Positions 5,801 to 64,000 are shown, numbered from the stretch's first letter. The stretch: 64,000 bases of DNA from GCF_055900595.2 NZ_CM148325.1, one strand, 5' to 3'. Notes: generated by a model not told the origin, from the letters alone. Made by a program: numbers and translations.

Positions 5801-6913
5801 TTATTTTCCGCTCTTCACTTTGGTCCACGCGCGGGTGCGCACACGGTCGATTTTCGGATCCTGCACTTTCAGAGTGAACAGCTTCGCACGGACATCCGCA
5901 GGCGGGTAAATACCGGGGTTATCACGCACTTCCGCGCTTACCAGCGGCGTAGCTTCTTTGTTCGCGTTGGCATAGAACACATGGTCAGAGATATGCGCTA
6001 CGACATCCGGACGCAGCAGGTAATTCAGGAACTGATAAGCTTCGTCTTTATTTTTGGCATCCGCAGGCATGGCAAATACATCAAAGAATGCCATCGCCCC
6101 TTCTTTCGGAATCGAGAACGAGACATTCACGCCATTCTTTGCTTCCTTCGCGCGGTTTGACGCCTGCCAGACATCGCCCGCCCAGCCAATAGCGACGCAG
6201 ATATCGCCGTTTGCCAGGTCGTTAATGTATTGAGATGAATGGAAATAACGAATGTTCGGGCGCAGCTTTAACAGCAGATCGGTTGCCGGTCCGGTGTAAT
6301 CATCTGCTTTAGTGCTGTTGGGATCTTTACCGAGATAATTCAGCACGGTAGCAAACACTTCTTCCGGTGCATCAAGGAAAGAGACGCCGCAGCTTTTCAG
6401 TTTTTCCAGATTTTCAGGTTTGAGGATCAAGTCCCAGCTATCGACGGGCGCGTTTTCACCCAGTACAGCTTTGACTTTATCGACGTTATAGCCAATCCCG
6501 GTCGTCGCCCACATATAGGGCATAGCAAATTTATTATCCGGGTCATGTTTAGCGACCAGCTTCAGCAGTTCCGGGTCGAGATTCTTCCACTCCGGCAATT
6601 TGTTTTTATCCAGTGGCTGGAAAACTCCCGCTGTCAGCTGGCGTTCAAGAAAGCTTGCTGACGGCACCACCAGGTCAAACCCGGTGCTCCCCGCCATTAA
6701 TTTTCCTTCCAGTACTTCGTTGGAATCGAAAACATCGTAAACGACTTAAATACCGGTTTCTTTTTCAAAATTGGCCACCGTATCCGGGGCGATATAATCA
6801 GACCAGTTATAGATGTGGAGTGTTTTTTGTTCAGCCGCGAGCGTGCCGACAGAGACGGCCATCAGAGCACCCGCAACCAGACCCGATAGCCATTTTTTAT
6901 TTAAGGCGGTCAT
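5801..6913 (-). pseudogene. potF: putrescine-binding periplasmic protein PotF, interrupted by in-frame TAA stop at codon 56
   Basis: ATG at 6913 ([11 protein letters not shown]... signal peptide) and stop at 5801 span the 370-codon length expected for PotF, but plus-strand TTA at 6746..6748 is an in-frame TAA (...FEKETGI*VVYDVF...); ORF track splits the gene into 6746..7063 and 5801..6697 in the same frame. Confidence 0.85.
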
Positions 6914-6972
6914 ATCTCTTTCCTTCTGAAAGTTCGTTAACAAACGAACAAAAGTTGTCACACTGAAAGATA

Positions 6973-6988
6973 TGCAATATTCGTGCAT
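6973..6988 (-). promoter_or_regulatory. putative sigma54-like -24/-12 element upstream of potF
   Basis: minus-strand ATGCACGAATATTGCA resembles TGGCAC-N5-TTGCA but has TG instead of GG at -24; low confidence. Confidence 0.2.
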
Positions 6989-7263
6989 ATTTTTTATCGG
7001 CTCGGTGTAAGAAAAGAGAACTCTCTCCCGGCCAGCACTGCTCGCTATATAAAAGCATCGCAAGAATAACTTTAGCCAGGGTTTGAGACTATAGCTCGAT
7101 TTAAAAAACGGTATTTAACAAATTTTTATGCGTATTTGCTCTATGTGATAAAGCCAAATCGGCACAAGAGAAGTGAAATAATCTTTAAGAAGAGGTTAAA
7201 AACAGCAGATAATTTTGCAGCACGCAGTCACTGCGGCAGCGACTGCGTACTCTAAAGGAGTTA

Positions 7264-7740
7264 TCAGTGGAGGAAATAGTTTTCGGTAACGTTGTTTTGC
7301 CCTTCATCGTCAGTCGGTAACAGCAGTTGATGGGCATTAGCTTCAAGAATGACCATCGAAATCTGCTCTTCGCTCTGACGCACGAACCATGCAAACTGCT
7401 CATAGGTTACGCCCTGCATAACGGATAAAGACTGGCAAACCACCAGCTTTGGCAGATTATCATCCTGCATATCAAGAAATGCTTTCACGGTCAGCGAACT
7501 GGCATTGATGGCTGATAAATCCGCCGCCAGCGGTAACACGGCTGAAGGTCGGACTTCCGCCATGGCAGAAAACAGGATCGTGTTATCGATCAGATCGATT
7601 TTGGCATCAAAGACACCGTCGAAATTCTGCATATGGGGCAGATGCAGAGCCTGACAGTTATCACATTCAAAAAAACTCATCCCCAGGTCATCGAGCCATT
7701 GACGCAACGTATCCAGACCAGGAACGACCAGCGATGTCAT
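7264..7740 (-). CDS. ybjN: YbjN family protein (putative sensory transduction regulator)
   Basis: 158 aa from ATG at 7740 (MTSLVVPGLD...). Confidence 0.9.
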   Translation of the reverse strand: MTSLVVPGLDTLRQWLDDLGMSFFECDNCQALHLPHMQNFDGVFDAKIDLIDNTILFSAMAEVRPSAVLPLAADLSAINASSLTVKAFLDMQDDNLPKLVVCQSLSVMQGVTYEQFAWFVRQSEEQISMVILEANAHQLLLPTDDEGQNNVTENYFLH

Positions 7741-7827
7741 AATTTTGTACAACCTCTTTCGATAAAAAGACCGGCACAGCTTACGCAAAAAGCGCAGGCA
7801 AAACCATGATCAGTAATGTGATTGCGA

Positions 7828-8730
7828 CTAACCACCCGTTTTCAGGCAATATTCGGTCGTAGCGTGGCGTTCGATCCAGCGGATCATTTTACCCGCGATG
7901 TCGATACCGGTGGTTTTTTCTATTCCTTCCAGCCCCGGCGACGCATTCACCTCCATCACCAATGGCCCGCGATTAGCACGCAGAATATCCACACCAGCAA
8001 CGTCCAGCGCCATCGTTCGCGCGGCTTTTATCGCGATTTCACGCTCCTGTGGTGTGATACTGGCGACGCTTGCCGCGCCTCCACGATGCAAATTGGAACG
8101 AAAATCGCCCTCTTTCGCCCGCCGTTCAATCGCAGCGACCACTTCATCGCCAACAACCAGACAGCGGATATCGCACCCTTGCGCCTCTTTGATATATTCC
8201 TGCACCAAAATATGCGCGTTCAGACCGCGGAAAGCGTCAATCACGCTTTCCGCCGCCTGACGCGTCTCCGCCAGCACGACACCAATTCCCTGCGTACCTT
8301 CAACCAGCTTAACCACCAGCGGCGCACCACCGACCATGTCGATTAAATCGCTGGTATCATCCGGCGAATGCGTAATGCCCGTGACAGGCAGGTCGATGCC
8401 CTGACGCGCCAACAGCTGCATGGAACGCAACTTGTCACGCGCCCGGGCAATGGCGACCGACTCATTGAGCGGATAGCTCCCCAGCATTTCAAACTGACGT
8501 AGCGCCGCCGTCCCATAAAAGGTAATGGCGGTGCCAATACGCGGGATCACAGCGTCAAAATGGGGTAACTTGCGGCCTTTGTAGTGAATAGAAGACGCCG
8601 CAGGATTTATGTTCATGTAGCAAGAAAGCGGATCAAGAATTTCAACCAGGTGACCACGCTGTATAGCGGCTTCACGCAGCCGCTTACACGAATAGAGCGT
8701 TCCATCCCGGGACAATATGGCAATTTTCAC
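7828..8730 (-). CDS. rimK: ribosomal protein S6 glutamate ligase RimK
   Basis: 300 aa, ATP-grasp fold; start codon GTG at 8730. Confidence 0.92.
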
Positions 8731-55179: not shown

Positions 55180-57405
55180 ATGCGGTGGATCCTGTTCATC
55201 CTCTTCTGCCTGCTGGGCGCACCTGCCCACGCGGTATCCATACCCGGCGTTACAACCACAACGACAACGGACTCAACGACTGAACCGGCCCCGGAACCGG
55301 ATATCGAACAAAAAAAAGCGGCCTATGGCGCACTGGCGGATGTGCTGGATAATGACACCTCGCGTAAAGAGTTGATCGACCAGTTGCGCACCGTCGCCGC
55401 GACGCCCCCTGCGGAACCCGTACCGAAGATCGTGCCGCCGACGCTGGTTGAAGAGCAAACCGTGCTGCAAAAAGTCACCGAAGTCAGCCGCCATTATGGT
55501 GAAGCCCTTTCCGCCCGCTTCGGACAACTTTATCGCAATATCACCGGCTCCCCGCATAAGCCGTTTAATCCACAAACCTTCAGCAATGCGCTGACCCATT
55601 TTTCAATGTTAGCGGTATTAGTGTTTGGTTTTTACTGGCTGATTCGCCTGTGCGCGCTGCCGCTGTATCGCAAAATGGGCCAGTGGGCACGGCAAAAAAA
55701 TCGTGAGCGCAGTAACTGGTTGCAGCTTCCGGCGATGATTATCGGGGCGTTTATTATCGACCTGCTGTTACTGGCACTGACATTATTTGTCGGTCAGGTT
55801 TTAAGCGACAACCTGAATGCGGGCAGTCGCACCATCGCTTTCCAACAAAGTTTGTTTCTCAACGCCTTTGCCCTGATTGAATTTTTCAAAGCCGTACTAC
55901 GCCTGATTTTTTGCCCCAACGTGGCGGAGCTGCGCCCGTTTACGATTCAGGACGAAAGCGCCCGTTACTGGAGTCGTCGCCTGAGCTGGTTAAGCAGCCT
56001 GATTGGGTATGGTCTGATTGTGGCTGTGCCGATTATCTCTAATCAGGTGAATGTGCAAATCGGTGCGCTAGCGAACGTCATCATTATGCTGTGCATGACC
56101 GTCTGGGCGCTGTACCTGATCTTTCGTAATAAAAAAGAGATTACGCAGCATTTGCTCAACTTCGCGGAACACTCGCTGGCCTTTTTCAGCCTGTTTATTC
56201 GCGCTTTTGCGCTGGTGTGGCACTGGTTGGCAAGCGCCTATTTTATCGTGCTGTTTTTCTTTTCGTTGTTCGATCCGGGCAACAGCCTGAAATTTATGAT
56301 GGGTGCAACGGTACGCAGCCTGGCGATTATTGGTATCGCCGCGTTTGTTTCCGGTATGTTTTCCCGCTGGCTGGCGAAAACCATCACTCTCTCGCCACAT
56401 ACTCAGCGTAACTATCCGGAGCTGCAAAAACGGTTGAACGGCTGGCTTTCGGCGGCGCTGAAAACGGCGCGTATTCTGACAGTCTGCGTGGCGGTAATGT
56501 TGCTGTTGAGCGCATGGGGATTGTTCGATTTCTGGAACTGGCTGCAAAACGGCGCGGGGCAGAGAACCGTAGATATCCTGATCCGTATCGCACTCATTCT
56601 TTTCTTCTCGGCGGTTGGCTGGACGGTGCTCGCCAGTTTGATCGAAAACCGGCTGGCTTCGGATATTCATGGCCGCCCGCTACCCAGCGCCCGTACGCGT
56701 ACCCTGCTGACGCTGTTCCGTAACGCGCTGGCGGTGATTATCAGTACCATCACCATCATGATTGTGTTGTCGGAAATCGGCGTTAATATCGCGCCATTGC
56801 TGGCAGGTGCCGGGGCATTAGGTCTGGCTATCTCGTTTGGTTCGCAAACGCTGGTGAAAGATATTATCACCGGGGTATTTATTCAGTTTGAAAACGGCAT
56901 GAACACTGGAGATTTGGTGACTATCGGGCCGTTGACCGGCACTGTGGAACGGATGTCGATTCGCTCCGTGGGCGTACGCCAGGATACCGGGGCGTATCAC
57001 ATCATTCCGTGGTCTTCGATTACCACCTTTGCTAACTTTGTCCGCGGCATTGGTTCGGTAGTGGCAAATTATGATGTTGATCGCCATGAAGATGCTGATA
57101 AAGCCAATCAGGCACTGAAAGATGCGGTAGCGGAATTAATGGAAAACGAAGAAATTCGCGGGTTGATTATCGGTGAACCGAACTTTGCCGGGATTGTCGG
57201 CTTAAGCAATACCGCATTTACACTGCGTGTTTCGTTCACCACGCTGCCACTCAAACAATGGACGGTCCGCTTTGCCCTCGACAGCCAGGTGAAAAAACAT
57301 TTCGACCTGGCGGGCGTTCGCGCGCCAGTGCAGACTTATCAGGTGCTGCCTGCTCCGGGCGCGACCCCGGCTGAACCGTTGCCGCCGGGGGAACCAACGC
57401 TTTAA
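55180..57405 (+). CDS. ybiO: mechanosensitive channel YbiO (MscS family)
   Basis: 741 aa from ATG at 55180 ([18 protein letters not shown] signal peptide); multiple TM helices and C-terminal MscS domain. Confidence 0.9.
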
Positions 57406-58328
57406 CGCTGGCGATTGACAAAACGGCGGCGCTGCTCGTCGTTCATAAAGGTCCAGGCAATAAAGCGGCTCTGCTTTTGCCCCTGGGCCATCTCTTTTTT
57501 GACCACTTTCACCGCGCCCACGTCCGTCAGAGCACGATACAACGGCGGTAAGTTTTCGCCACGAGATACCAGCGAGGTAAACCACATCACCTGCTTCGCG
57601 AAGCCTTTGCTCTCTTCAATCATCTTTTTGATAAAAGCCACTTCACCGCCTTCACACCACAACTCCTGTTGCTGACCACCAAAGTTCAATGCATCGTCTT
57701 TGTTCAGCCCCAGATTACGCCGTTTACGCTCACTACCCGCCCGTGCCGCAGCGGCGGAATCGTGGAATGGCGGGTTACACAAGGTCGCGTCGTATTGCTC
57801 GTTTTTGTGGATAATACCGTTAAAAATCGCCCCGCTCTCTTTTTGCCGACGCAGACGAATGGCGCGATTAAGCCCCGGATTAGCGCTGATGATCGCCTGC
57901 GCGCTGCTTAACGCCTGGCTGCTGGTTTCACTACCGGTAAAACGCCAGCCGTATTCATGTACGCCAATCAGCGGATAAATACAGTTCGCACCAACGCCGA
58001 TATCCAGAATGCTGGCATTAGCTGGAATTGTTCCGCTTGCTTCTGCCAGTAAATCGGCAAGGTGATGAATATAATCCGCCCGGCCCGGTACTGGCGGGCA
58101 GAGAAAACCGTCGGGGATATCCCAGTTCGCTACGGCGTAAAAATGGGCCAGCAACGCCTTATTGAGCGCCTTCACCGCCAGCGGATTGGCAAAGTCTACG
58201 CTTTGCTCCCCGGCGGGTGTAAGCGTGAGGAATTGCCTGAGTTCAGGATTCACCTGACAAAGCGTGGCGAGATCGTAGCGGCTGTGATGACGGTTGCGCG
58301 GATGCAACCCCGGTTTCTGGGCGGACAT
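57402..58328 (-). CDS. rlmF: 23S rRNA (adenine1618-N6)-methyltransferase RlmF (YbiN)
   Basis: 308 aa from ATG at 58328; NPPF motif; stop shares TTAA with ybiO stop. Confidence 0.9.
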
Positions 58329-58602
58329 AGCATTCTCCTTTAAGCAGCGGCGTAAGATACCCGCATAACGCGACAGGGTAAATATCTGGCTGCGTTTATC
58401 ATTCTCCAAACCTTAACATGACTATGGTTTATGGCTATTCACCATAAAAATCAGCATCATTCATGTCATTGATTTGTCTTATTTTGTAAAAATATATCGT
58501 TCAAAAAATAAGCACATCTCTGTCAATTTTTTGCGTCATTTGCATCGCGCAGGCGACCTACACTTATCAGGCACTACCCGTTGTATTTATGAGGATGTCA
58601 TT

Positions 58603-58863
58603 ATGAAAAAGTGCCTCACACTACTGATTGCCACCGTCCTGAGCGGGCTCTCTCTCACGGCTTATGCCGCGCAACCAATGAGTAACCTGGACAGCGGTCA
58701 GCTACGGCCCGCCGGTACCGTTTCGGCAACTGGCGCATCAAACCTAAGCGATCTGGAGGATAAACTGGCAGAAAAAGCGCGCGAACAAGGCGCGAAAGGT
58801 TATGTCATTAATTCCGCAGGCGGAAATGACCAGATGTTCGGTACTGCAACCATCTACAAATAA
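58603..58863 (+). CDS. mcbA: DUF1471 (YhcN family) secreted protein McbA (YbiM)
   Basis: 86 aa from ATG at 58603 with signal peptide; adjacent to rlmF as expected. Confidence 0.85.
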   Translation: MKKCLTLLIATVLSGLSLTAYAAQPMSNLDSGQLRPAGTVSATGASNLSDLEDKLAEKAREQGAKGYVINSAGGNDQMFGTATIYK

Positions 58864-58997
58864 CCCCACCAACGTAACTGCATTCGCCTCTGGATGCAGT
58901 TTTCGCCTGTTTTGTAATCAAAAAACATCAAATATGAACTTAATGTAAATAAATGTATTTCTTTTTCGCGCAATGGGTGATAGAAAATCGCGCTAAG

Positions 58998-59025
58998 TGA
59001 TAATGCTTATCAAAATTATTATCAC
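58998..59025. promoter_or_regulatory. Fur box in fiu promoter
   Basis: GTGATAATGCTTATCAAAATTATTATCAC resembles GATAATGATAATCATTATC; about 100 bp upstream of fiu ATG. Confidence 0.7.
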
Positions 59026-59127
59026 TTGCACGAACACTATCACGGGATTAACAGTGGCATCGCATCCGCAGAGAGGCTTTCTCGTGACAGTGAAAATTTC
59101 AACATATAAGAAAAAGTCACCTGCAAA

Positions 59128-61410
59128 ATGGAAAACAATCGCAATTTCCCTGCCAGACAATTTCATTCGCTCACGTTCTTTGCCGGTCTTTGTATTGGCA
59201 TCACGCCTGTGGCACAGGCACTCGCCGCCGAAGGGCAAGCTAACGCGGATGACACGCTGGTTGTCGAAGCATCAACGCCTTCGCTTTACGCGCCACAACA
59301 ATCTGCCGATCCGAAATTCTCGCGTCCGGTAGCAGATACTACCCGCACGATGACGGTGATTTCTGAACAAGTGATTAAAGATCAGGGTGCAACCAACCTT
59401 ACCGATGCGCTCAAAAACGTCCCCGGCGTGGGTGCATTTTTTGCTGGTGAGAACGGTAACTCCACCACTGGCGACGCCATTTATATGCGCGGTGCCGATA
59501 CTTCTAACAGTATTTATATTGATGGGATTCGCGATATCGGCAGCGTCTCGCGCGACACTTTCAATACAGAGCAGGTCGAAGTAATTAAAGGGCCGTCCGG
59601 CACCGACTACGGGCGCAGCGCGCCGACGGGCTCGATCAATATGATCAGCAAGCAGCCGCGCAATGATTCAGGCATTGACGCTTCCGCCAGTATTGGCAGC
59701 GCCTGGTTCCGCCGCGGCACGCTGGACGTCAATCAGGTCATTGGTGATACCACCGCGGTGCGCCTGAATGTGATGGGTGAAAAAACGCACGATGCCGGAC
59801 GCGACAAAGTTAAAAATGAGCGTTACGGCATCGCCCCTTCTGTCGCTTTTGGCCTTGGCACAGCGAATCGTTTGTATCTTAATTATCTGCATGTCACCCA
59901 GCACAACACGCCAGACGGCGGCATTCCGACCATCGGTTTGCCGGGCTATTCTGCCCCATCGGCGGGAACGGCGGCCCTGAATCATTCCGGAAAAGTTGAT
60001 ACGCATAACTTTTACGGCACGGATTCCGATTACGACGATTCGACCACCGACACCGCTACCATGCGTTTTGAGCACGACATCAACGATAACACCACCATTC
60101 GCAACACTACCCGTTGGTCGCGCGTGAAGCAGGATTACCTGATGACGGCGATTATGGGCGGGGCGTCGAATATTACCCAGCCCACCAGCGATGTGAATAG
60201 CTGGACCTGGTCACGCACGGCGAATACCAAGGATGTGAGTAATAAAATTCTCACCAACCAGACCAACCTGACCTCGACGTTCTATACCGGTTCTATCGGT
60301 CATGATGTCAGTACTGGCGTGGAATTTACCCGTGAAACGCAGACTAACTATGGCGTTAATCCGGTGACGTTACCTGCGGTGAATATTTATCATCCTGACA
60401 GCAGCATTCATCCTGGCGGCCTGACGCGTAACGGCGCAAACGCCAATGGTCAGACGGATACCTTCGCAATTTATGCCTTCGATACGCTGCAAATCACCCG
60501 TGATTTTGAGCTGAACGGCGGGATCCGTCTGGATAATTATCATACTGAATATGACAGTGCCACCGCCTGCGGCGGCAGTGGCCGAGGTGCCGTTACCTGC
60601 CCAGCTGGCGTGGCGAAAGGTTCTCCGGTCACCACTGTTGACACCGCCAAGTCTGGCAATCTGGTGAACTGGAAAGCCGGGGCGCTGTATCACCTGACGG
60701 AAAACGGCAATGTCTATATTAACTATGCCGTTTCCCAGCAGCCTCCGGGCGGCAACAACTTCGCCCTTGCGCAGTCTGGCAGCGGTAACAGTGCCAACCG
60801 CACCGATTTTAAACCGCAAAAAGCCAACACCAGCGAGATTGGCACCAAATGGCAGGTTCTGGATAAACGCCTGTTGCTCACCGCCGCGCTGTTCCGTACT
60901 GATATCGAAAATGAAGTTGAGCAAAATGATGACGGAACTTACTCGCAATACGGTAAGAAACGCGTCGAAGGCTATGAGATATCCGTGGCCGGGAATATCA
61001 CTCCCGCGTGGCAGGTGATTGGCGGCTATACCCAGCAAAAAGCAACCATCAAAAACGGCAAAGATGTTGCCCAGGATGGTTCCTCATCGCTGCCGTATAC
61101 CCCGGAGCACGCCTTTACCTTATGGAGCCAGTATCAGGCAACCGATGATATCTCTGTTGGCGCGGGCGCTCGCTATATCGGCAGTATGCATAAAGGTTCA
61201 GACGGCGCGGTGGGAACGCCAGCATTTACCGAGGGTTATTGGGTCGCCGATGCCAAACTGGGGTATCGGGTTAATCGCAATCTCGACCTCCAGCTAAACG
61301 TCTACAACCTGTTTGATACCGATTACGTCGCCTCAATCAACAAGAGCGGCTACCGTTATCACCCGGGCGAGCCAAGAACCTTCCTGCTTACCGCCAATAT
61401 GCATTTCTGA
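59128..61410 (+). CDS. fiu: TonB-dependent catecholate siderophore receptor Fiu
   Basis: 760 aa; signal peptide, TonB box DTLVVEA, C-terminal F. Confidence 0.95.
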   Translation: MENNRNFPARQFHSLTFFAGLCIGITPVAQALAAEGQANADDTLVVEASTPSLYAPQQSADPKFSRPVADTTRTMTVISEQVIKDQGATNLTDALKNVPGVGAFFAGENGNSTTGDAIYMRGADTSNSIYIDGIRDIGSVSRDTFNTEQVEVIKGPSGTDYGRSAPTGSINMISKQPRNDSGIDASASIGSAWFRRGTLDVNQVIGDTTAVRLNVMGEKTHDAGRDKVKNERYGIAPSVAFGLGTANRLYLNYLHVTQHNTPDGGIPTIGLPGYSAPSAGTAALNHSGKVDTHNFYGTDSDYDDSTTDTATMRFEHDINDNTTIRNTTRWSRVKQDYLMTAIMGGASNITQPTSDVNSWTWSRTANTKDVSNKILTNQTNLTSTFYTGSIGHDVSTGVEFTRETQTNYGVNPVTLPAVNIYHPDSSIHPGGLTRNGANANGQTDTFAIYAFDTLQITRDFELNGGIRLDNYHTEYDSATACGGSGRGAVTCPAGVAKGSPVTTVDTAKSGNLVNWKAGALYHLTENGNVYINYAVSQQPPGGNNFALAQSGSGNSANRTDFKPQKANTSEIGTKWQVLDKRLLLTAALFRTDIENEVEQNDDGTYSQYGKKRVEGYEISVAGNITPAWQVIGGYTQQKATIKNGKDVAQDGSSSLPYTPEHAFTLWSQYQATDDISVGAGARYIGSMHKGSDGAVGTPAFTEGYWVADAKLGYRVNRNLDLQLNVYNLFDTDYVASINKSGYRYHPGEPRTFLLTANMHF

Positions 61411-61460
61411 TTCAGATGTGGGGCGCAGGGCTCACTAATGTTGATGGCGAGAACAGGACT

Positions 61461-61560
61461 GCCTGATGCGCTGCGCTTATCAGGCCTACAAGGTTGTGCA
61501 ATGCATTGAATTCACATCATTTGGTAGGCCGGATAAGGCGTTCACGCCGCATCCGGCATG
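61461..61560. repeat. REP element cluster
   Basis: GCCTGATGCGCTGCGCTTATCAGGCCTACA and GGTAGGCCGGATAAGGCGTTCACGCCGCATCCGGCATG. Confidence 0.8.
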
Positions 61561-61622
61561 AACAAAGCACCTGCTGTTAAAAATCGGTGTAGGGTAAAAG
61601 CCCCACTTTTTGGAGAACTTGT

Positions 61623-62300
61623 ATGATGTACCACATTCCCTGCGTGTTATCGCCACAGGACGTCGCGCGGTTTCGTGAACAACTGGAACAAGCCGAATGG
61701 GTTGATGGACGCGTCACCACCGGCGCACAAGGTGCGCAAGTTAAGAATAATCAACAGGTAGACACCCACAGCGCGTTATACGCCGCCCTGCAAAATGAGG
61801 TGCTGAACGCGGTTAACCAACATGCATTGTTCTTTGCCGCTGCCTTGCCGCGTACCCTTTCCACGCCGCTGTTTAATCGTTATCAGAACAATGAAACTTA
61901 CGGTTTTCATGTGGATGGCGCAGTACGCAGTCACCCACAAAACGGCTGGATGCGCACTGACCTTTCTGCCACGCTGTTTTTAAGCGATCCACAAAGCTAC
62001 GACGGCGGCGAACTGGTCGTTAATGACACCTTCGGGCAACATCGGGTAAAACTTCCGGCAGGCGATCTGGTGTTGTATCCCTCCAGCAGCCTGCATTGCG
62101 TGACGCCCGTAACCCGCGGCGTACGAGTGGCATCATTTATGTGGATCCAGTCGATGATCCGCGATGATAAAAAGCGCGCCATGCTGTTCGATCTGGACAA
62201 CAATATTCAGTCGCTGAAAAGCCGCTATGGTGAAAGTGAAGAGATCCTGTCGCTGCTCAATCTTTATCATAATCTGCTGCGGGAATGGTCGGAGATCTGA
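61623..62300 (+). CDS. ybiX: PKHD-type Fe(II)/2-oxoglutarate-dependent hydroxylase YbiX
   Basis: 225 aa; HxD...H motif (HVDGAV ... SLHCV). Confidence 0.9.
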
Positions 62301-62373
62301 CGCTTGAACTGCCCGAGTTCGTCCCTATATTAGCTACACTTAACTGTACAAGCATTGATATGGGGAGGACGAT

Positions 62374-62640
62374 ATGGCATCCGGTTGGGCTAACGATGAC
62401 GCCGTCAACGAACAGATCAACAGTACAATTGAAGATGCGATTGCTCGTGCCCGGGGTGAAATTCCGCGTGGCGAGAGCCTGTATGAATGTGAAGAGTGCG
62501 GCGCCCCCATCCCGCAGGCCCGTCGGGAAGCCATTCCTGGCGTGCGCTTATGCATTCACTGCCAACAGGAGAAAGATTTACAAAAACCAGCTTATACAGG
62601 ATATAATCGCAGAGGTTCGAAAGACAGCCAGTTACGTTAA
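62374..62640 (+). CDS. ybiI: DksA/TraR-family C4 zinc-finger protein YbiI
   Basis: 88 aa; CxxC-N17-CxxC (CEECGAPIP...CIHC). Confidence 0.9.
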   Translation: MASGWANDDAVNEQINSTIEDAIARARGEIPRGESLYECEECGAPIPQARREAIPGVRLCIHCQQEKDLQKPAYTGYNRRGSKDSQLR

Positions 62641-62904
62641 CTGCAACTGGCGGGATGTATAGTGAGTATAATTTGTATTTTGCGTGGCATTCCGTGCCTT
62701 TAACGCTGCCGTGACTGCCACGCTGCATAAAACAAGTCCATAAGTACAACAAATAAATGGTTTATCAGTATGTTAGATATCAATCAATTTATTTGAATAA
62801 GGCGGTCAATTCTCTTCGATTTTATCTCTCGTAAAAAAACGTGATACTCATCACATCGACGAAACAACGTCACTTAAACAAAAATCACCTGCGAGAGATT
62901 AATT

Positions 62905-63165
62905 ATGAAAACTATCAATGCTGTTGTTGCTGCTATGGCTCTTTCAACTCTGTCATTTGGCGTGTTTGCCGCGGAACCGGTAACGGCATCCCAGGCACAG
63001 AACATGAATAAAATCGGCGTGGTTTCTGCCGATGGCGCATCCACCCTCGATGCCCTGGAAGCGAAACTGGCTGAGAAAGCTGCGGCTGCTGGTGCCAGCG
63101 GATACAGCATCACTTCTGCCACCAACAACAATAAATTAAGCGGAACTGCGGTTATCTATAAGTAA
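62905..63165 (+). CDS. ybiJ: DUF1471 (YhcN family) secreted protein YbiJ
   Basis: 86 aa with signal peptide; paralog of McbA. Confidence 0.88.
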   Translation: MKTINAVVAAMALSTLSFGVFAAEPVTASQAQNMNKIGVVSADGASTLDALEAKLAEKAAAAGASGYSITSATNNNKLSGTAVIYK

Positions 63166-63167
63166 TT

Positions 63168-63205
63168 CGTAGGCCGGATAAGGCGTTCACGCTACGTCCA
63201 GCACA
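63168..63205. repeat. REP-like element
   Basis: GTAGGCCGGATAAGGCGTTCACGCTACGTCCAGCAC. Confidence 0.6.
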
Positions 63206-63276
63206 AGTATTTCCCTGTCTGTTTGCCGACAGACGCATATGCTCTAACCCTCATTGATCCTATGTTACCCTTATTT

Positions 63277-63306
63277 GCCCGTCCGTCACTGGACGGGCTT
63301 TTTTTT
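63277..63306. terminator. bidirectional rho-independent terminator between ybiJ and ybiC
   Basis: stem GCCCGTCC/GGACGGGC followed by TTTTTTTT; overlaps ybiC stop. Confidence 0.8.
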
Positions 63307-64000
63307 AGCTGGCTAACTGCTGACAGAAAGCCTGCAACACCTCTTCCGGCATACCAATCTGCCGTGCCGCATCACAAATGGCCTGCCAGCTTCCCGCATC
63401 CAATGGAATCCCCTGCTCCTGCCGTTCGCGACGCGTGTTAACTTCCCACTCGCCCGGTAGCAAAATCGGCTTATCGTCATCATGCGGCGAGGCTTTCACC
63501 CACTCGGCAAAGGCTTCGGTCTGCGCGCTACAATCCGGCGCGCCGAACAGTTCCGGGTTGATGATGATAGTGGTCATGCAGTTAAGAATGGCATCGGGAC
63601 TGGTTTGTAACGTTTCCTGATGCGTCGTTTTACCGCCGGAAAGCGCCCCACCAAGAATTTCACACATCGCTGCAAGGGCGTAGCCTTTATGTTCGGCAAA
63701 GGTCAACAGCGAACCCAACGGCGACTCCTGCATTACCGCCGGATTGGTCGTCGGCATGCCGTTAACGTCAATCAGGCAACCTGGCGGCACGGGGACGCCT
63801 TTATGCCAGGCGACGCGAGTTTTCCCAAATGCGATGGCGCTGGTGGCGTAATCGAGCAACAGCGGGAAATTATCTTTACGTGGGAAAACCACACAGAACG
63901 GGTTGGTGCCAAAGCGGCTGTCGCGGCCGTGGAACGGCGCGACCATTGGAATACCCACCACGCTAACAAAGTGGATAGAGACAAACCCCGCCGCTGCACA
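63305..64000 (-). CDS. ybiC: hydroxycarboxylate dehydrogenase YbiC (Ldh2/Mdh family), 3' portion; 5' end beyond window
   Basis: reading frame open from window end to stop at 63305; C-terminal ...QAFCQQLAS; only about 231 codons of an expected roughly 361 are in the window. Confidence 0.85.
   Translation of the reverse strand, partial: CAAAGFVSIHFVSVVGIPMVAPFHGRDSRFGTNPFCVVFPRKDNFPLLLDYATSAIAFGKTRVAWHKGVPVPPGCLIDVNGMPTTNPAVMQESPLGSLLTFAEHKGYALAAMCEILGGALSGGKTTHQETLQTSPDAILNCMTTIIINPELFGAPDCSAQTEAFAEWVKASPHDDDKPILLPGEWEVNTRRERQEQGIPLDAGSWQAICDAARQIGMPEEVLQAFCQQLAS

What the first reader, a model, noticed from the sequence alone, without database searches (positions are those of the whole stretch)
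58603..63165. Fur-regulated fiu-ybiX-ybiI cluster bracketed by two DUF1471 paralogs
A Fur box (58998..59025) precedes fiu (TonB-dependent receptor), followed on the same strand by ybiX (Fe/2OG-type hydroxylase) and ybiI (DksA-like C4 zinc finger). Small secreted DUF1471 paralogs flank the cluster: mcbA upstream and ybiJ downstream, both 86 aa with a shared ...LAEKA...G..GY.I.SA...GTA.IYK C-terminal pattern. The arrangement suggests a local duplication framing an iron-responsive module.
Basis: partly seen in the sequence, partly recalled or inferred. Interest (0 to 1): 0.3.

Follow-up and report, generated by a model that had tools for sequence, protein, structure and literature searches.

The report
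Known Fur-controlled fiu-ybiX-ybiI operon, E. coli

Summary
The Fur box is the best in the 64 kb: 15/19 matches, plus a phased cluster never seen in 200 simulations.

Published ChIP-exo and delta-fur RNA-seq already show one Fur peak upstream of fiu. Derepression falls along the cluster: fiu, then ybiX, ybiI and ybiJ. mcbA does not respond.

In 80 related loci the receptor-hydroxylase pair is conserved from Escherichia to Betaproteobacteria. ybiI and the two DUF1471 genes occur only in Enterobacteriaceae proper.

McbA and YbiJ are true paralogs (47% identity), but BhsA is equally close to both. Bootstrap trees cannot show that the two are direct duplicates, so local duplication is plausible but unproven. 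They are not an iron-responsive frame.

New detail: a hairpin with a T-run between fiu and ybiX is conserved across Enterobacterales with differing stem sequences. In this strain a ~163-bp BIME sits inside its loop, as in about 10% of E. coli genomes.

Verdict: already known, low interest.

The parts
58603..58863 (+). mcbA (ybiM): 86-aa secreted DUF1471 protein
   Evidence: ORF; RefSeq annotation; PF07338 E=2e-19; 98% identical to K-12 McbA
58876..58914 (+). Terminator-like hairpin after mcbA (AACTGCATTC...GGATGCAGTT followed by TTTTCGCCTGTTTTG)
   Evidence: RNA fold of 58861-58925, -15.2 kcal/mol.
58977..59004 (+). Sigma-70-like promoter candidate for fiu (GTGATA-16-GATAAT); the -10 hexamer lies inside the Fur box
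   Evidence: Consensus scan, 9/12. The transcription start was not mapped here
58993..59029 (.). Fur box array (GTGATAATGCTTATCAAAATTATTATCAC)
   Evidence: 15/19 at 58999 plus phased sites at 58993, 59005 and 59011; simulation control; conserved in Enterobacterales loci. It overlaps the published ChIP-exo peak if that peak is given in U00096.2 coordinates
59128..61410 (+). fiu: TonB-dependent catecholate siderophore receptor (760 aa; TonB-box-like DTLVV at residue 42)
61418..61611 (+). Split attenuator or terminator hairpin: arms GTGGGGC (61418-61424) and GCCCCAC (61600-61606) followed by T5. In K-12 the arms are 4 nt apart
   Evidence: K-12 spacer sequence; fold of the window spacer pairs the two arms around the insert; a hairpin is present in every Enterobacterales spacer folded, with different stem sequences
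61437..61599 (.). BIME insertion absent from K-12: REP at 61461-61489 and an inverted REP at 61524-61557
   Evidence: blastn against K-12; exact REP strings; sub-threshold Rfam naRNA4 (REP-derived) hit; 555 of 5426 E. coli genomes carry the long spacer; also present in E. whittamii and Escherichia sp. MOD1-EC7003
61623..62300 (+). ybiX: PKHD-type Fe(II)/2-oxoglutarate hydroxylase (H96, D98, H158, R168), homolog of PiuC and CciO
62304..62340 (+). Promoter-like elements in the ybiX-ybiI spacer (TTGAAC-16-TATATT; a second -10-like TACACT at 62335-62340)
   Evidence: Consensus scan; elements conserved across genera in the spacer alignment; genomic SELEX places sigma-S and other holoenzyme binding in this spacer (PMC5493296)
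62374..62640 (+). ybiI: 88-aa TraR/DksA-type C4 zinc-finger protein (C39, C42, C60, C63)
   Evidence: PDB 2KGO is YbiI; TraR matches at E=2e-11
62627..62651 (+). Hairpin overlapping the ybiI stop codon, with no T-run
62905..63165 (+). ybiJ: 86-aa secreted DUF1471 protein
63169..63306 (+). ybiJ 3' region: one REP (63169-63192; K-12 has about 64 bp more here, probably a second REP), the equivalent of the K-12 sRNA ZbiJ (about 63210-63306), and a strong terminator (63277-63298 plus T8)

Best explanation
This is the chromosomal mcbA / fiu-ybiX-ybiI / ybiJ region of E. coli.

With iron present, Fur-Fe(II) occupies an array of overlapping Fur boxes that covers the -10 region of the fiu promoter. In low iron the promoter is derepressed. 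Transcription then runs fiu, ybiX, ybiI and, weakly, ybiJ, losing strength at each junction. The first step-down is at a conserved GC-rich hairpin with a T-run between fiu and ybiX. ybiI also has its own Fur-independent promoter.

Fiu imports ferric catecholates and catechol-drug conjugates across the outer membrane. YbiX is a cytoplasmic Fe(II)/2OG hydroxylase that acts with the receptor. The pairing is ancient and has been shown genetically elsewhere, but the substrate is unknown. YbiI is a TraR-like zinc-finger protein added to the operon only in Enterobacteriaceae, and it probably acts on RNA polymerase.

mcbA and ybiJ are old DUF1471 paralogs. They have sat on either side of fiu since the ancestor of Enterobacteriaceae proper, but they are not part of the Fur regulon proper.

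Shown here: the anatomy, the Fur box statistics, the synteny and the hairpin conservation. Taken from the literature: Fur binding, delta-fur expression and the receptor-hydroxylase dependence. Inferred: the attenuator role of the hairpin, the role of YbiI and the duplication history.
For: Genes and domains.

Fur box: best in the window, with a phased cluster absent from 200 simulations, and conserved upstream of fiu in Enterobacterales.

Published data: one ChIP-exo peak upstream of fiu. In MG1655 delta-fur the expression values are about 1760 (fiu), 380 (ybiX), 185 (ybiI) and 75 (ybiJ), and mcbA is unchanged (PMC10164565 supplements). All three genes are in the Fur-1 iModulon.

Synteny: a TonB-dependent receptor lies upstream of the YbiX homolog on the same strand, immediately adjacent in all but two loci, in 79 of 80 loci, from Escherichia to Betaproteobacteria and Aliarcobacter.

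Functional link: CciT strictly requires CciO in Caulobacter (PMC12004947). Deleting ybiX in a cirA-deleted E. coli raises the cefiderocol MIC, and an IS insertion in the fiu-ybiX spacer was selected in that study (bioRxiv 10.1101/2025.02.14.638246).

Hairpin: present in every Enterobacterales fiu-ybiX spacer folded, with different stem sequences in Escherichia, Klebsiella and Tatumella.

ybiI promoter.

YbiI resembles TraR, and over-expression is reported to rescue delta-dksA auxotrophy (PMC2613031, data not shown).
Against: No transcript ends or starts were mapped for this strain. All expression and ChIP data come from other E. coli strains, most of which probably have the short 41-nt spacer. 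The hairpin with T5 could terminate most transcripts, leaving ybiX dependent on a minor read-through fraction. The effect of the 163-bp BIME on that read-through is unknown. The published MG1655 transcription unit stops at ybiX rather than ybiI. YbiI lacks a strict DxxDxA tip motif.
Confidence: 0.85

Rival explanations
1. One reading: mcbA and ybiJ are the two products of one local duplication at this locus. This could be a tandem pair later split by arrival of the fiu-ybiX cassette, or a duplication across it.
For: The two genes have the same strand and the same length (86 aa), align without gaps at 47% identity, and are each other's nominal best paralog. Both positions are occupied across Enterobacteriaceae proper: ybiJ in all 34 loci that extend far enough, and an mcbA-type gene in 29 of 35. 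Neither gene accompanies fiu-ybiX in Pantoea, Rouxiella, Serratia or Tatumella, so the cassette and the DUF1471 genes have separate histories. The family is known to expand by tandem duplication, for example yjfN-bsmA (PMC4092069).
Against: BhsA, encoded about 330 kb away, is as close to each as they are to one another (70.1, 70.9 and 71.6 bits). NJ bootstrap support for McbA+YbiJ as sisters is 28-49%, against 12-36% for each alternative. Only 56-73 alignment columns are available. Salmonella keeps ybiJ but lacks mcbA.
Confidence: 0.45
2. ybiX and ybiI are separate transcription units, each with its own promoter and Fur site, rather than members of a fiu operon.
For: A terminator-like hairpin with T5 lies between fiu and ybiX. 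There is a conserved promoter-like site and SELEX RNA polymerase binding in the ybiX-ybiI spacer. A 13/19 Fur-like site lies at 62256, 118 nt upstream of ybiI. ybiI basal expression is higher than ybiX in wild type.
Against: There is only one Fur ChIP-exo peak, upstream of fiu. The 62256 site lies in ybiX codons and loses matches through synonymous changes in other genera. No promoter-like site was found in the fiu-ybiX spacer. In K-12 only a 41-nt spacer with an RBS separates the genes. The authors of the cefiderocol study propose that an IS insertion in that spacer lowers ybiX expression by distancing it from the promoter, though they did not measure it. The fold-change gradient fits read-through.
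Confidence: 0.12
3. The DUF1471 genes are functional partners of Fiu, for example periplasmic proteins with an RcsF-like fold that bind the barrel. On this view the bracket is kept by selection, not by history.
For: The bracket is conserved in 29 of 35 Enterobacteriaceae loci. ybiJ is mildly Fur-responsive. DUF1471 resembles RcsF in structure, and RcsF binds outer-membrane barrels (bioRxiv 10.1101/2025.02.11.637708).
Against: mcbA does not respond to Fur, and the literature reports it as controlled by McbR/YncC. The upstream copy has been lost repeatedly: in Salmonella, in some Klebsiella and Pseudocitrobacter, and in one of the Kluyvera loci. fiu-ybiX works without either gene in all other lineages. 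The reported ybiJ phenotypes are envelope and stress related, not iron related.
Confidence: 0.07

Closest known systems
E. coli K-12 fiu-ybiX(-ybiI) Fur-regulated operon (b0805-b0803) with neighbours mcbA (b0806) and ybiJ (b0802)
   Same: Same genes, order and strands. DNA identity is 95.6-97.2%. The Fur box is the same and the proteins are 96-99% identical.
   Different: This strain has a ~163-bp BIME in the fiu-ybiX spacer (212 nt against 41 nt). It also lacks about 64 bp that K-12 has downstream of ybiJ, probably a second REP copy, which changes the end of the small ORF ybiE.
PiuA-PiuC (Pseudomonas, Acinetobacter) and CciT-CciO (Caulobacter): a TonB-dependent receptor paired with a 2OG/Fe(II) dioxygenase
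   Same: A Fur-regulated receptor sits next to a PKHD-type hydroxylase. YbiX matches PiuC structures at E=3e-69. The pair is co-conserved across Proteobacteria.
   Different: Those systems have no ybiI and no DUF1471 neighbours. In about half of the non-enterobacterial loci fetched here, the gene after the hydroxylase is instead an FMN-dependent alpha-hydroxyacid dehydrogenase, TonB or ExbB.
TraR (F plasmid) and DksA: regulators that bind the RNA polymerase secondary channel
   Same: YbiI has the CxxC-N17-CxxC zinc finger and aligns with TraR over residues 11-77. It is reported to rescue delta-dksA auxotrophy when over-expressed.
   Different: It is chromosomal and iron-regulated. Its N-terminal tip reads GWANDDA rather than DxxDxA. 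It has three extra residues in the helix and an invariant 13-residue tail, GYNRRGSKDSQLR, that TraR lacks.
DUF1471 / YhcN / BhsA-McbA family (PF07338)
   Same: Both flanking proteins are typical single-domain members of about 86 aa with Sec signal peptides.
   Different: Nothing unusual. McbA is the faster-evolving of the two: mean within-clade distance is 0.59 for McbA against 0.26 for YbiJ.

Membership tests
Fur-repressed promoter | Match to the 19-bp Fur consensus, or an array of GATAAT-like hexamers | tested here: met
   15/19 plus three overlapping sites at 13/19 or better in 6-bp phase. Expected 0.13 sites at 15/19 or better per window, and the cluster never occurred in 200 simulations.
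Fur-repressed promoter | Operator overlaps the core promoter | tested here: inconclusive
   The only + strand promoter-like site upstream of fiu has its -10 hexamer (GATAAT, 58999-59004) inside the Fur box. No transcription start was mapped.
Fur-repressed promoter | Fur binding in vivo and derepression in a fur mutant | not testable with these tools
   Published for nine other E. coli strains: a ChIP-exo peak upstream of fiu and log2FC of 5.2-10.0 (PMC10164565). Not measured in this strain.
TonB-dependent receptor (Fiu ortholog) | N-terminal plug domain plus 22-strand barrel domain | tested here: met
   PF07715 E=2.5e-22 and PF00593 E=8e-56. RefSeq names it catecholate siderophore receptor Fiu.
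PKHD-type Fe(II)/2OG hydroxylase (YbiX/PiuC) | 2OG-Fe(II) oxygenase fold with an HxD...H iron triad, plus the PKHD C-terminal domain | tested here: met
   PF13640 and PF18331. H96-x-D98, H158 and R168 are present and conserved in the alignment to 3DKQ.
PKHD-type Fe(II)/2OG hydroxylase (YbiX/PiuC) | Encoded directly downstream of a Fiu/PiuA-type receptor | tested here: met
   79 of 80 loci, on the same strand.
DksA/TraR secondary-channel regulators | C4 zinc finger (CxxC-N17-CxxC) | tested here: met
   C39, C42, C60 and C63; PF01258 E=2.5e-12.
DksA/TraR secondary-channel regulators | Acidic DxxDxA motif at the helix tip that reaches the active site | tested here: not met
   The YbiI tip is the invariant MASGWANDDAV. 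Only a D8-x-A10 half-motif is possible, and MAFFT does not align it to TraR D3/D6/A8.
DksA/TraR secondary-channel regulators | Binds RNA polymerase and changes initiation at rRNA and amino-acid promoters | not testable with these tools
   The only evidence is a 'data not shown' statement that over-expression rescues delta-dksA auxotrophy (PMC2613031).
DUF1471 (YhcN/BhsA/McbA) | Single domain of about 55 residues following a Sec signal peptide | tested here: met
   PF07338, residues 34-86 in both proteins. The signal peptides end AYA|A and VFA|A (read from the sequence).
Direct local duplicates (McbA/YbiJ as sister paralogs) | The two are each other's closest relatives, to the exclusion of distant paralogs | tested here: inconclusive
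   BhsA is equidistant from both. The sister grouping has 28-49% bootstrap support.
BIME/REP element | Pair of inverted REP palindromes, many copies per genome, intergenic | tested here: met
   REPs at 61461-61489 and 61524-61557 in opposite orientation. A median of 39 matching places per E. coli genome. 82% identical to the K-12 ybiO-glnQ REP region.

The most novel reading that the evidence does not exclude
The bracket is functional rather than historical. On this reading McbA and YbiJ, whose DUF1471 fold resembles the barrel-binding sensor RcsF, are periplasmic partners of the Fiu barrel. That would explain why the two genes have stayed on either side of fiu throughout Enterobacteriaceae and why ybiJ rises in fur mutants. 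Two further open readings from the same locus: YbiI may be an iron-starvation-induced, TraR-like modulator of RNA polymerase; and the BIME nested in the fiu-ybiX hairpin may change the Fiu:YbiX ratio, and so catechol-drug uptake, in about 10% of strains.
Probability: 0.08. Interest if true: 0.5.

Novelty: already known. Interest (0 to 1): 0.15.

Why it matters
Fiu and YbiX matter in practice because they influence uptake of catechol-siderophore antibiotics such as cefiderocol. The biochemical role of the hydroxylase and of YbiI is still unknown. Nothing in the finding as stated goes beyond current annotation and published Fur-regulon data.

Two details here may be useful to people working on this operon. 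First, the internal hairpin between fiu and ybiX is conserved with differing stem sequences. Second, a BIME is nested in that hairpin's loop in about one E. coli genome in ten. This is a natural variant at the same spacer where a selected IS insertion was associated with cefiderocol resistance.

Tried and rejected
- **A second Fur site for ybiI.** The 13/19 match at 62256 lies in ybiX codons. It degrades through synonymous changes in other genera, and no ChIP-exo peak is reported there. I treat it as chance.
- **Resolving the duplication by phylogeny.** A first run with Biopython bootstrapping timed out. A faster NJ bootstrap on three column sets left the McbA/YbiJ/BhsA trio unresolved.
- **Homolog search with McbA.** It returned only McbA orthologs (Escherichia, Citrobacter, Leclercia, Huaxiibacter), so the paralogs had to be taken from K-12 loci.
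- **Rfam.** Only sub-threshold REP-derived hits, and no riboswitch or sRNA family in 57000-64000.
- **Literature on PiuC structures.** The new PDB entries 9GHL and 9QN0-4 have no paper in the library. A search for a mapped fiu transcription start found nothing usable.
- **The other 15/19 Fur-like site (27395).** It lies inside a 246-aa ORF and lacks the phased cluster, so I did not pursue it.
- **Sensitive DUF1471 search.** A profile HMM search of all 80 loci found no hidden copies outside Enterobacteriaceae proper.

Full report
**What is there**

The window is Escherichia coli chromosome. The 6.5 kb around the finding matches 5,416 of 5,426 complete E. coli genomes over at least 80% of its length, and 14 records at 99% identity or better. 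ORF listing and the RefSeq annotation of a 99.9%-identical genome agree on five + strand genes:
- mcbA, 58603-58863
- fiu, 59128-61410
- ybiX, 61623-62300
- ybiI, 62374-62640
- ybiJ, 62905-63165

They are flanked by rlmF and ybiO on the left and hcxB on the right.
- DUF1471 (PF07338) for McbA and YbiJ
- Plug plus TonB-dependent barrel for Fiu
- 2OG-FeII_Oxy_3 plus PKHD_C for YbiX
- zf-dksA_traR for YbiI

YbiX carries H96-x-D98, H158 and R168. YbiI carries C39, C42, C60 and C63. The coordinates and descriptions in the finding are correct.

**The Fur box**

Scoring every 19-mer of the window against GATAATGATAATCATTATC puts 58999 at 15/19, tied for best of the 64 kb. Overlapping sites at 58993, 59005 and 59011 lie in the 6-bp register typical of Fur hexamer arrays. 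Markov simulations of the window give a mean of 0.13 sites at 15/19 or better. None of 200 simulations had four sites at 13/19 or better within 25 nt.

The only + strand promoter-like site upstream of fiu (GTGATA-16-GATAAT, 58977-59004) has its -10 hexamer inside the box. An equivalent site was the best, or tied for best, match in the locus for 41 of the 42 Enterobacterales loci with an intact, scorable fiu, about 50-190 nt upstream of the ATG depending on which start codon the ORF call picked. Several betaproteobacterial loci also have 14-15/19 sites upstream of the receptor.

**Regulation and transcription units (from the literature)**

- There is one Fur ChIP-exo peak, upstream of fiu.
- The transcription units are listed as fiu-ybiX in MG1655 and fiu,ybiX,ybiI in W3110 and W.
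- Delta-fur log2 fold changes in MG1655 are fiu 5.47, ybiX 5.21, ybiI 3.04, ybiJ 1.24 (p=3e-6) and mcbA 0.40 (not significant).
- In W3110 they are 10.0, 7.1, 5.3 and 3.1 for fiu, ybiX, ybiI and ybiJ.

If the MG1655 peak (840869-840893) is given in U00096.2 coordinates, it falls on GTGATAATGCTTATCAA, the left part of the box. That coordinate mapping is my inference. fiu, ybiX and ybiI are all in the Fur-1 iModulon.

In delta-fur MG1655 the expression values step down by roughly 4.6-, 2.1- and 2.5-fold along fiu, ybiX, ybiI and ybiJ. That is what read-through from a single promoter with partial termination at each junction would give.

ybiI also has its own input:
- Genomic SELEX places sigma-S, and more weakly other holoenzymes, in the ybiX-ybiI spacer (PMC5493296).
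- A TTGAAC-16-TATATT site lies there.
- The spacer elements are conserved across genera.

mcbA is insulated from fiu by a terminator-like hairpin at 58876-58914.

**The hairpin between fiu and ybiX, and the BIME**

In K-12 the 41-nt fiu-ybiX spacer reads GTGGGGC-GCAG-GCCCCAC-TTTTT-GGAG. This is a terminator-like hairpin immediately before the ybiX ribosome-binding site.

Folding the same spacer from 22 Enterobacterales loci gives a GC-rich hairpin in every one. A T-rich tail follows in most, but it is weak or absent in some, for example Citrobacter. The stem sequences differ:
- GTGGGGC/GCCCCAC in Escherichia, Citrobacter and Kluyvera
- CGGGGCG/CGCCCCG in Klebsiella and Raoultella
- unrelated stems in Tatumella

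The structure, not the sequence, is therefore what is kept. I infer that it is a partial terminator or a 3'-end stabiliser that sets the Fiu:YbiX ratio.

In the window the spacer is 212 nt. A ~163-bp BIME sits inside the loop of that hairpin, with REPs at 61461-61489 and, inverted, at 61524-61557. The predicted fold still pairs the two separated arms. The long spacer is present in 555 of 5,426 E. coli genomes. This is a lower bound because of the BLAST piece limit. It is also present in E. whittamii and in Escherichia sp. MOD1-EC7003.

An experimentally selected IS insertion in this same spacer accompanied high cefiderocol MICs. In a cirA-deleted background, deleting ybiX raised the MIC (bioRxiv 10.1101/2025.02.14.638246). 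Whether the natural BIME changes ybiX or ybiI expression is untested.

**How old are the parts?**

Eighty loci encoding YbiX relatives were fetched.
- **Receptor-hydroxylase pair.** A TonB-dependent receptor lies upstream on the same strand in 79 of 80 loci, immediately adjacent in all but two. These run from Escherichia through Pantoea, Rouxiella, Serratia and Tatumella to Betaproteobacteria, an alphaproteobacterium and Aliarcobacter. This agrees with the published co-conservation of PiuA-PiuC and CciT-CciO, and with the strict requirement of CciT for CciO (PMC12004947, PMC12004943).
- **ybiI.** It is found only in Escherichia, Citrobacter, Leclercia, Silvania, Pseudocitrobacter, Klebsiella and Raoultella, plus Enterobacter according to the homolog search. 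It is absent from Kluyvera and from everything more distant.
- **ybiJ.** A downstream DUF1471 gene is present in all 34 Enterobacteriaceae loci that extend far enough.
- **mcbA.** An upstream DUF1471 gene with the McbA signature LRPxGTVSxSGA is present in 29 of 35 Enterobacteriaceae loci.
- **Outside Enterobacteriaceae proper.** Neither DUF1471 gene is found, even with a profile HMM.

So the core module is ancient. ybiI and the DUF1471 neighbours are later, lineage-specific context.

**Is the bracket a local duplication?**

McbA and YbiJ are significantly similar: 47% identity, no gaps, E=1e-15. Against all K-12 DUF1471 paralogs, however, McbA-YbiJ (70.9 bits), McbA-BhsA (70.1) and YbiJ-BhsA (71.6) are indistinguishable. 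This matches the 47% McbA-YcfR identity noted by Eletsky et al. (PMC4092069).

NJ trees with 300 bootstraps on 24 sequences gave the following:
- the McbA clade is recovered in 79-98% of replicates
- the YbiJ clade is recovered in 88-96%
- the three together are recovered in 60-78%
- McbA+YbiJ as sisters are recovered in only 28-49%, with both alternatives at 12-36%

Position, strand, length and the family's known habit of tandem duplication make a local origin plausible, and I put it near 45%. The sequences are too short to prove it. McbA evolves faster than YbiJ: mean within-clade distance is 0.59 against 0.26.

**YbiI**

The closest solved relative other than YbiI itself (2KGO) is TraR of the F plasmid, at E=2e-11. 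Across 14 orthologs the N-terminus MASGWANDDAV and a C-terminal tail GYNRRGSKDSQLR are almost invariant. TraR has no such tail, and the strict DxxDxA tip motif is not present. Blankschien et al. state that over-expressed YbiI rescues delta-dksA auxotrophy, as data not shown (PMC2613031). A TraR-like action on RNA polymerase during iron starvation is therefore a reasonable but untested mechanism.

**Verdict**

The duplication idea remains open. The notion that the DUF1471 pair frames the iron module functionally is not supported. The locus is already known and its interest is low. The conserved hairpin with a nested BIME is a small new detail worth a note.

Noticed in passing
window 61418-61611: A ~163-bp BIME (two inverted REPs) is inserted inside the loop of the conserved hairpin with T-run that separates fiu and ybiX. 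K-12 has the bare 41-nt hairpin spacer. The long allele occurs in at least 555 of 5426 E. coli genomes and in E. whittamii and Escherichia sp. MOD1-EC7003.
   Followed up: partly
L054, L056, L057, L059, L061, L063, L064, L067, L068, L070, L071, L073, L075, L077, L082, L084, L086 (gene starting 0-8 nt after, or overlapping, the YbiX homolog, about position 6650-7850 of each locus): In 17 of 35 non-enterobacterial loci the gene immediately after the PKHD hydroxylase is an FMN-dependent alpha-hydroxyacid dehydrogenase (PF01070, E down to 1e-123). This suggests a receptor-hydroxylase-FMN dehydrogenase triad in Betaproteobacteria. Other loci have TonB or ExbB there, and Tatumella has a D-Ala-D-Ala-ligase-like ATP-grasp gene.
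   Followed up: partly
window 63166-63306: Downstream of ybiJ the window has one REP, where K-12 has about 64 bp more, probably a second copy. As a result the K-12 small ORF ybiE (19 aa, opposite strand) loses its stop codon here and reads 28 aa. The region equivalent to the K-12 3'-UTR sRNA ZbiJ, with its strong terminator (63277-63298 plus T8), is present.
   Followed up: partly
window 57001-64000: This stretch is only 95.6-97.2% identical to K-12, lowest over ybiX-ybiJ. Only 14 of about 5,470 matching records reach 99% or better, so the strain or this segment belongs to a sparsely sampled lineage.
   Followed up: no
window 27395-27413: A second 15/19 match to the Fur consensus (GATAATATTTATTATCATC) lies inside a 246-aa minus-strand ORF (27057-27797). 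It lacks the phased cluster seen at fiu.
   Followed up: partly
window 62374-62640 and YbiI orthologs in L008-L051: YbiI orthologs keep an almost invariant N-terminus (MASGWANDDAV) and an invariant 13-residue C-terminal tail (GYNRRGSKDSQLR) that TraR lacks. The tail has no assigned function.
   Followed up: partly
L020 5937-6000 and L030 5921-6000 (Pseudocitrobacter): In Pseudocitrobacter the fiu-ybiX hairpin position is occupied by REP-like palindromes (GCGCTGCGCTT...AAGCGCAGCGC). This looks like independent REP colonisation of the same spacer.
   Followed up: no
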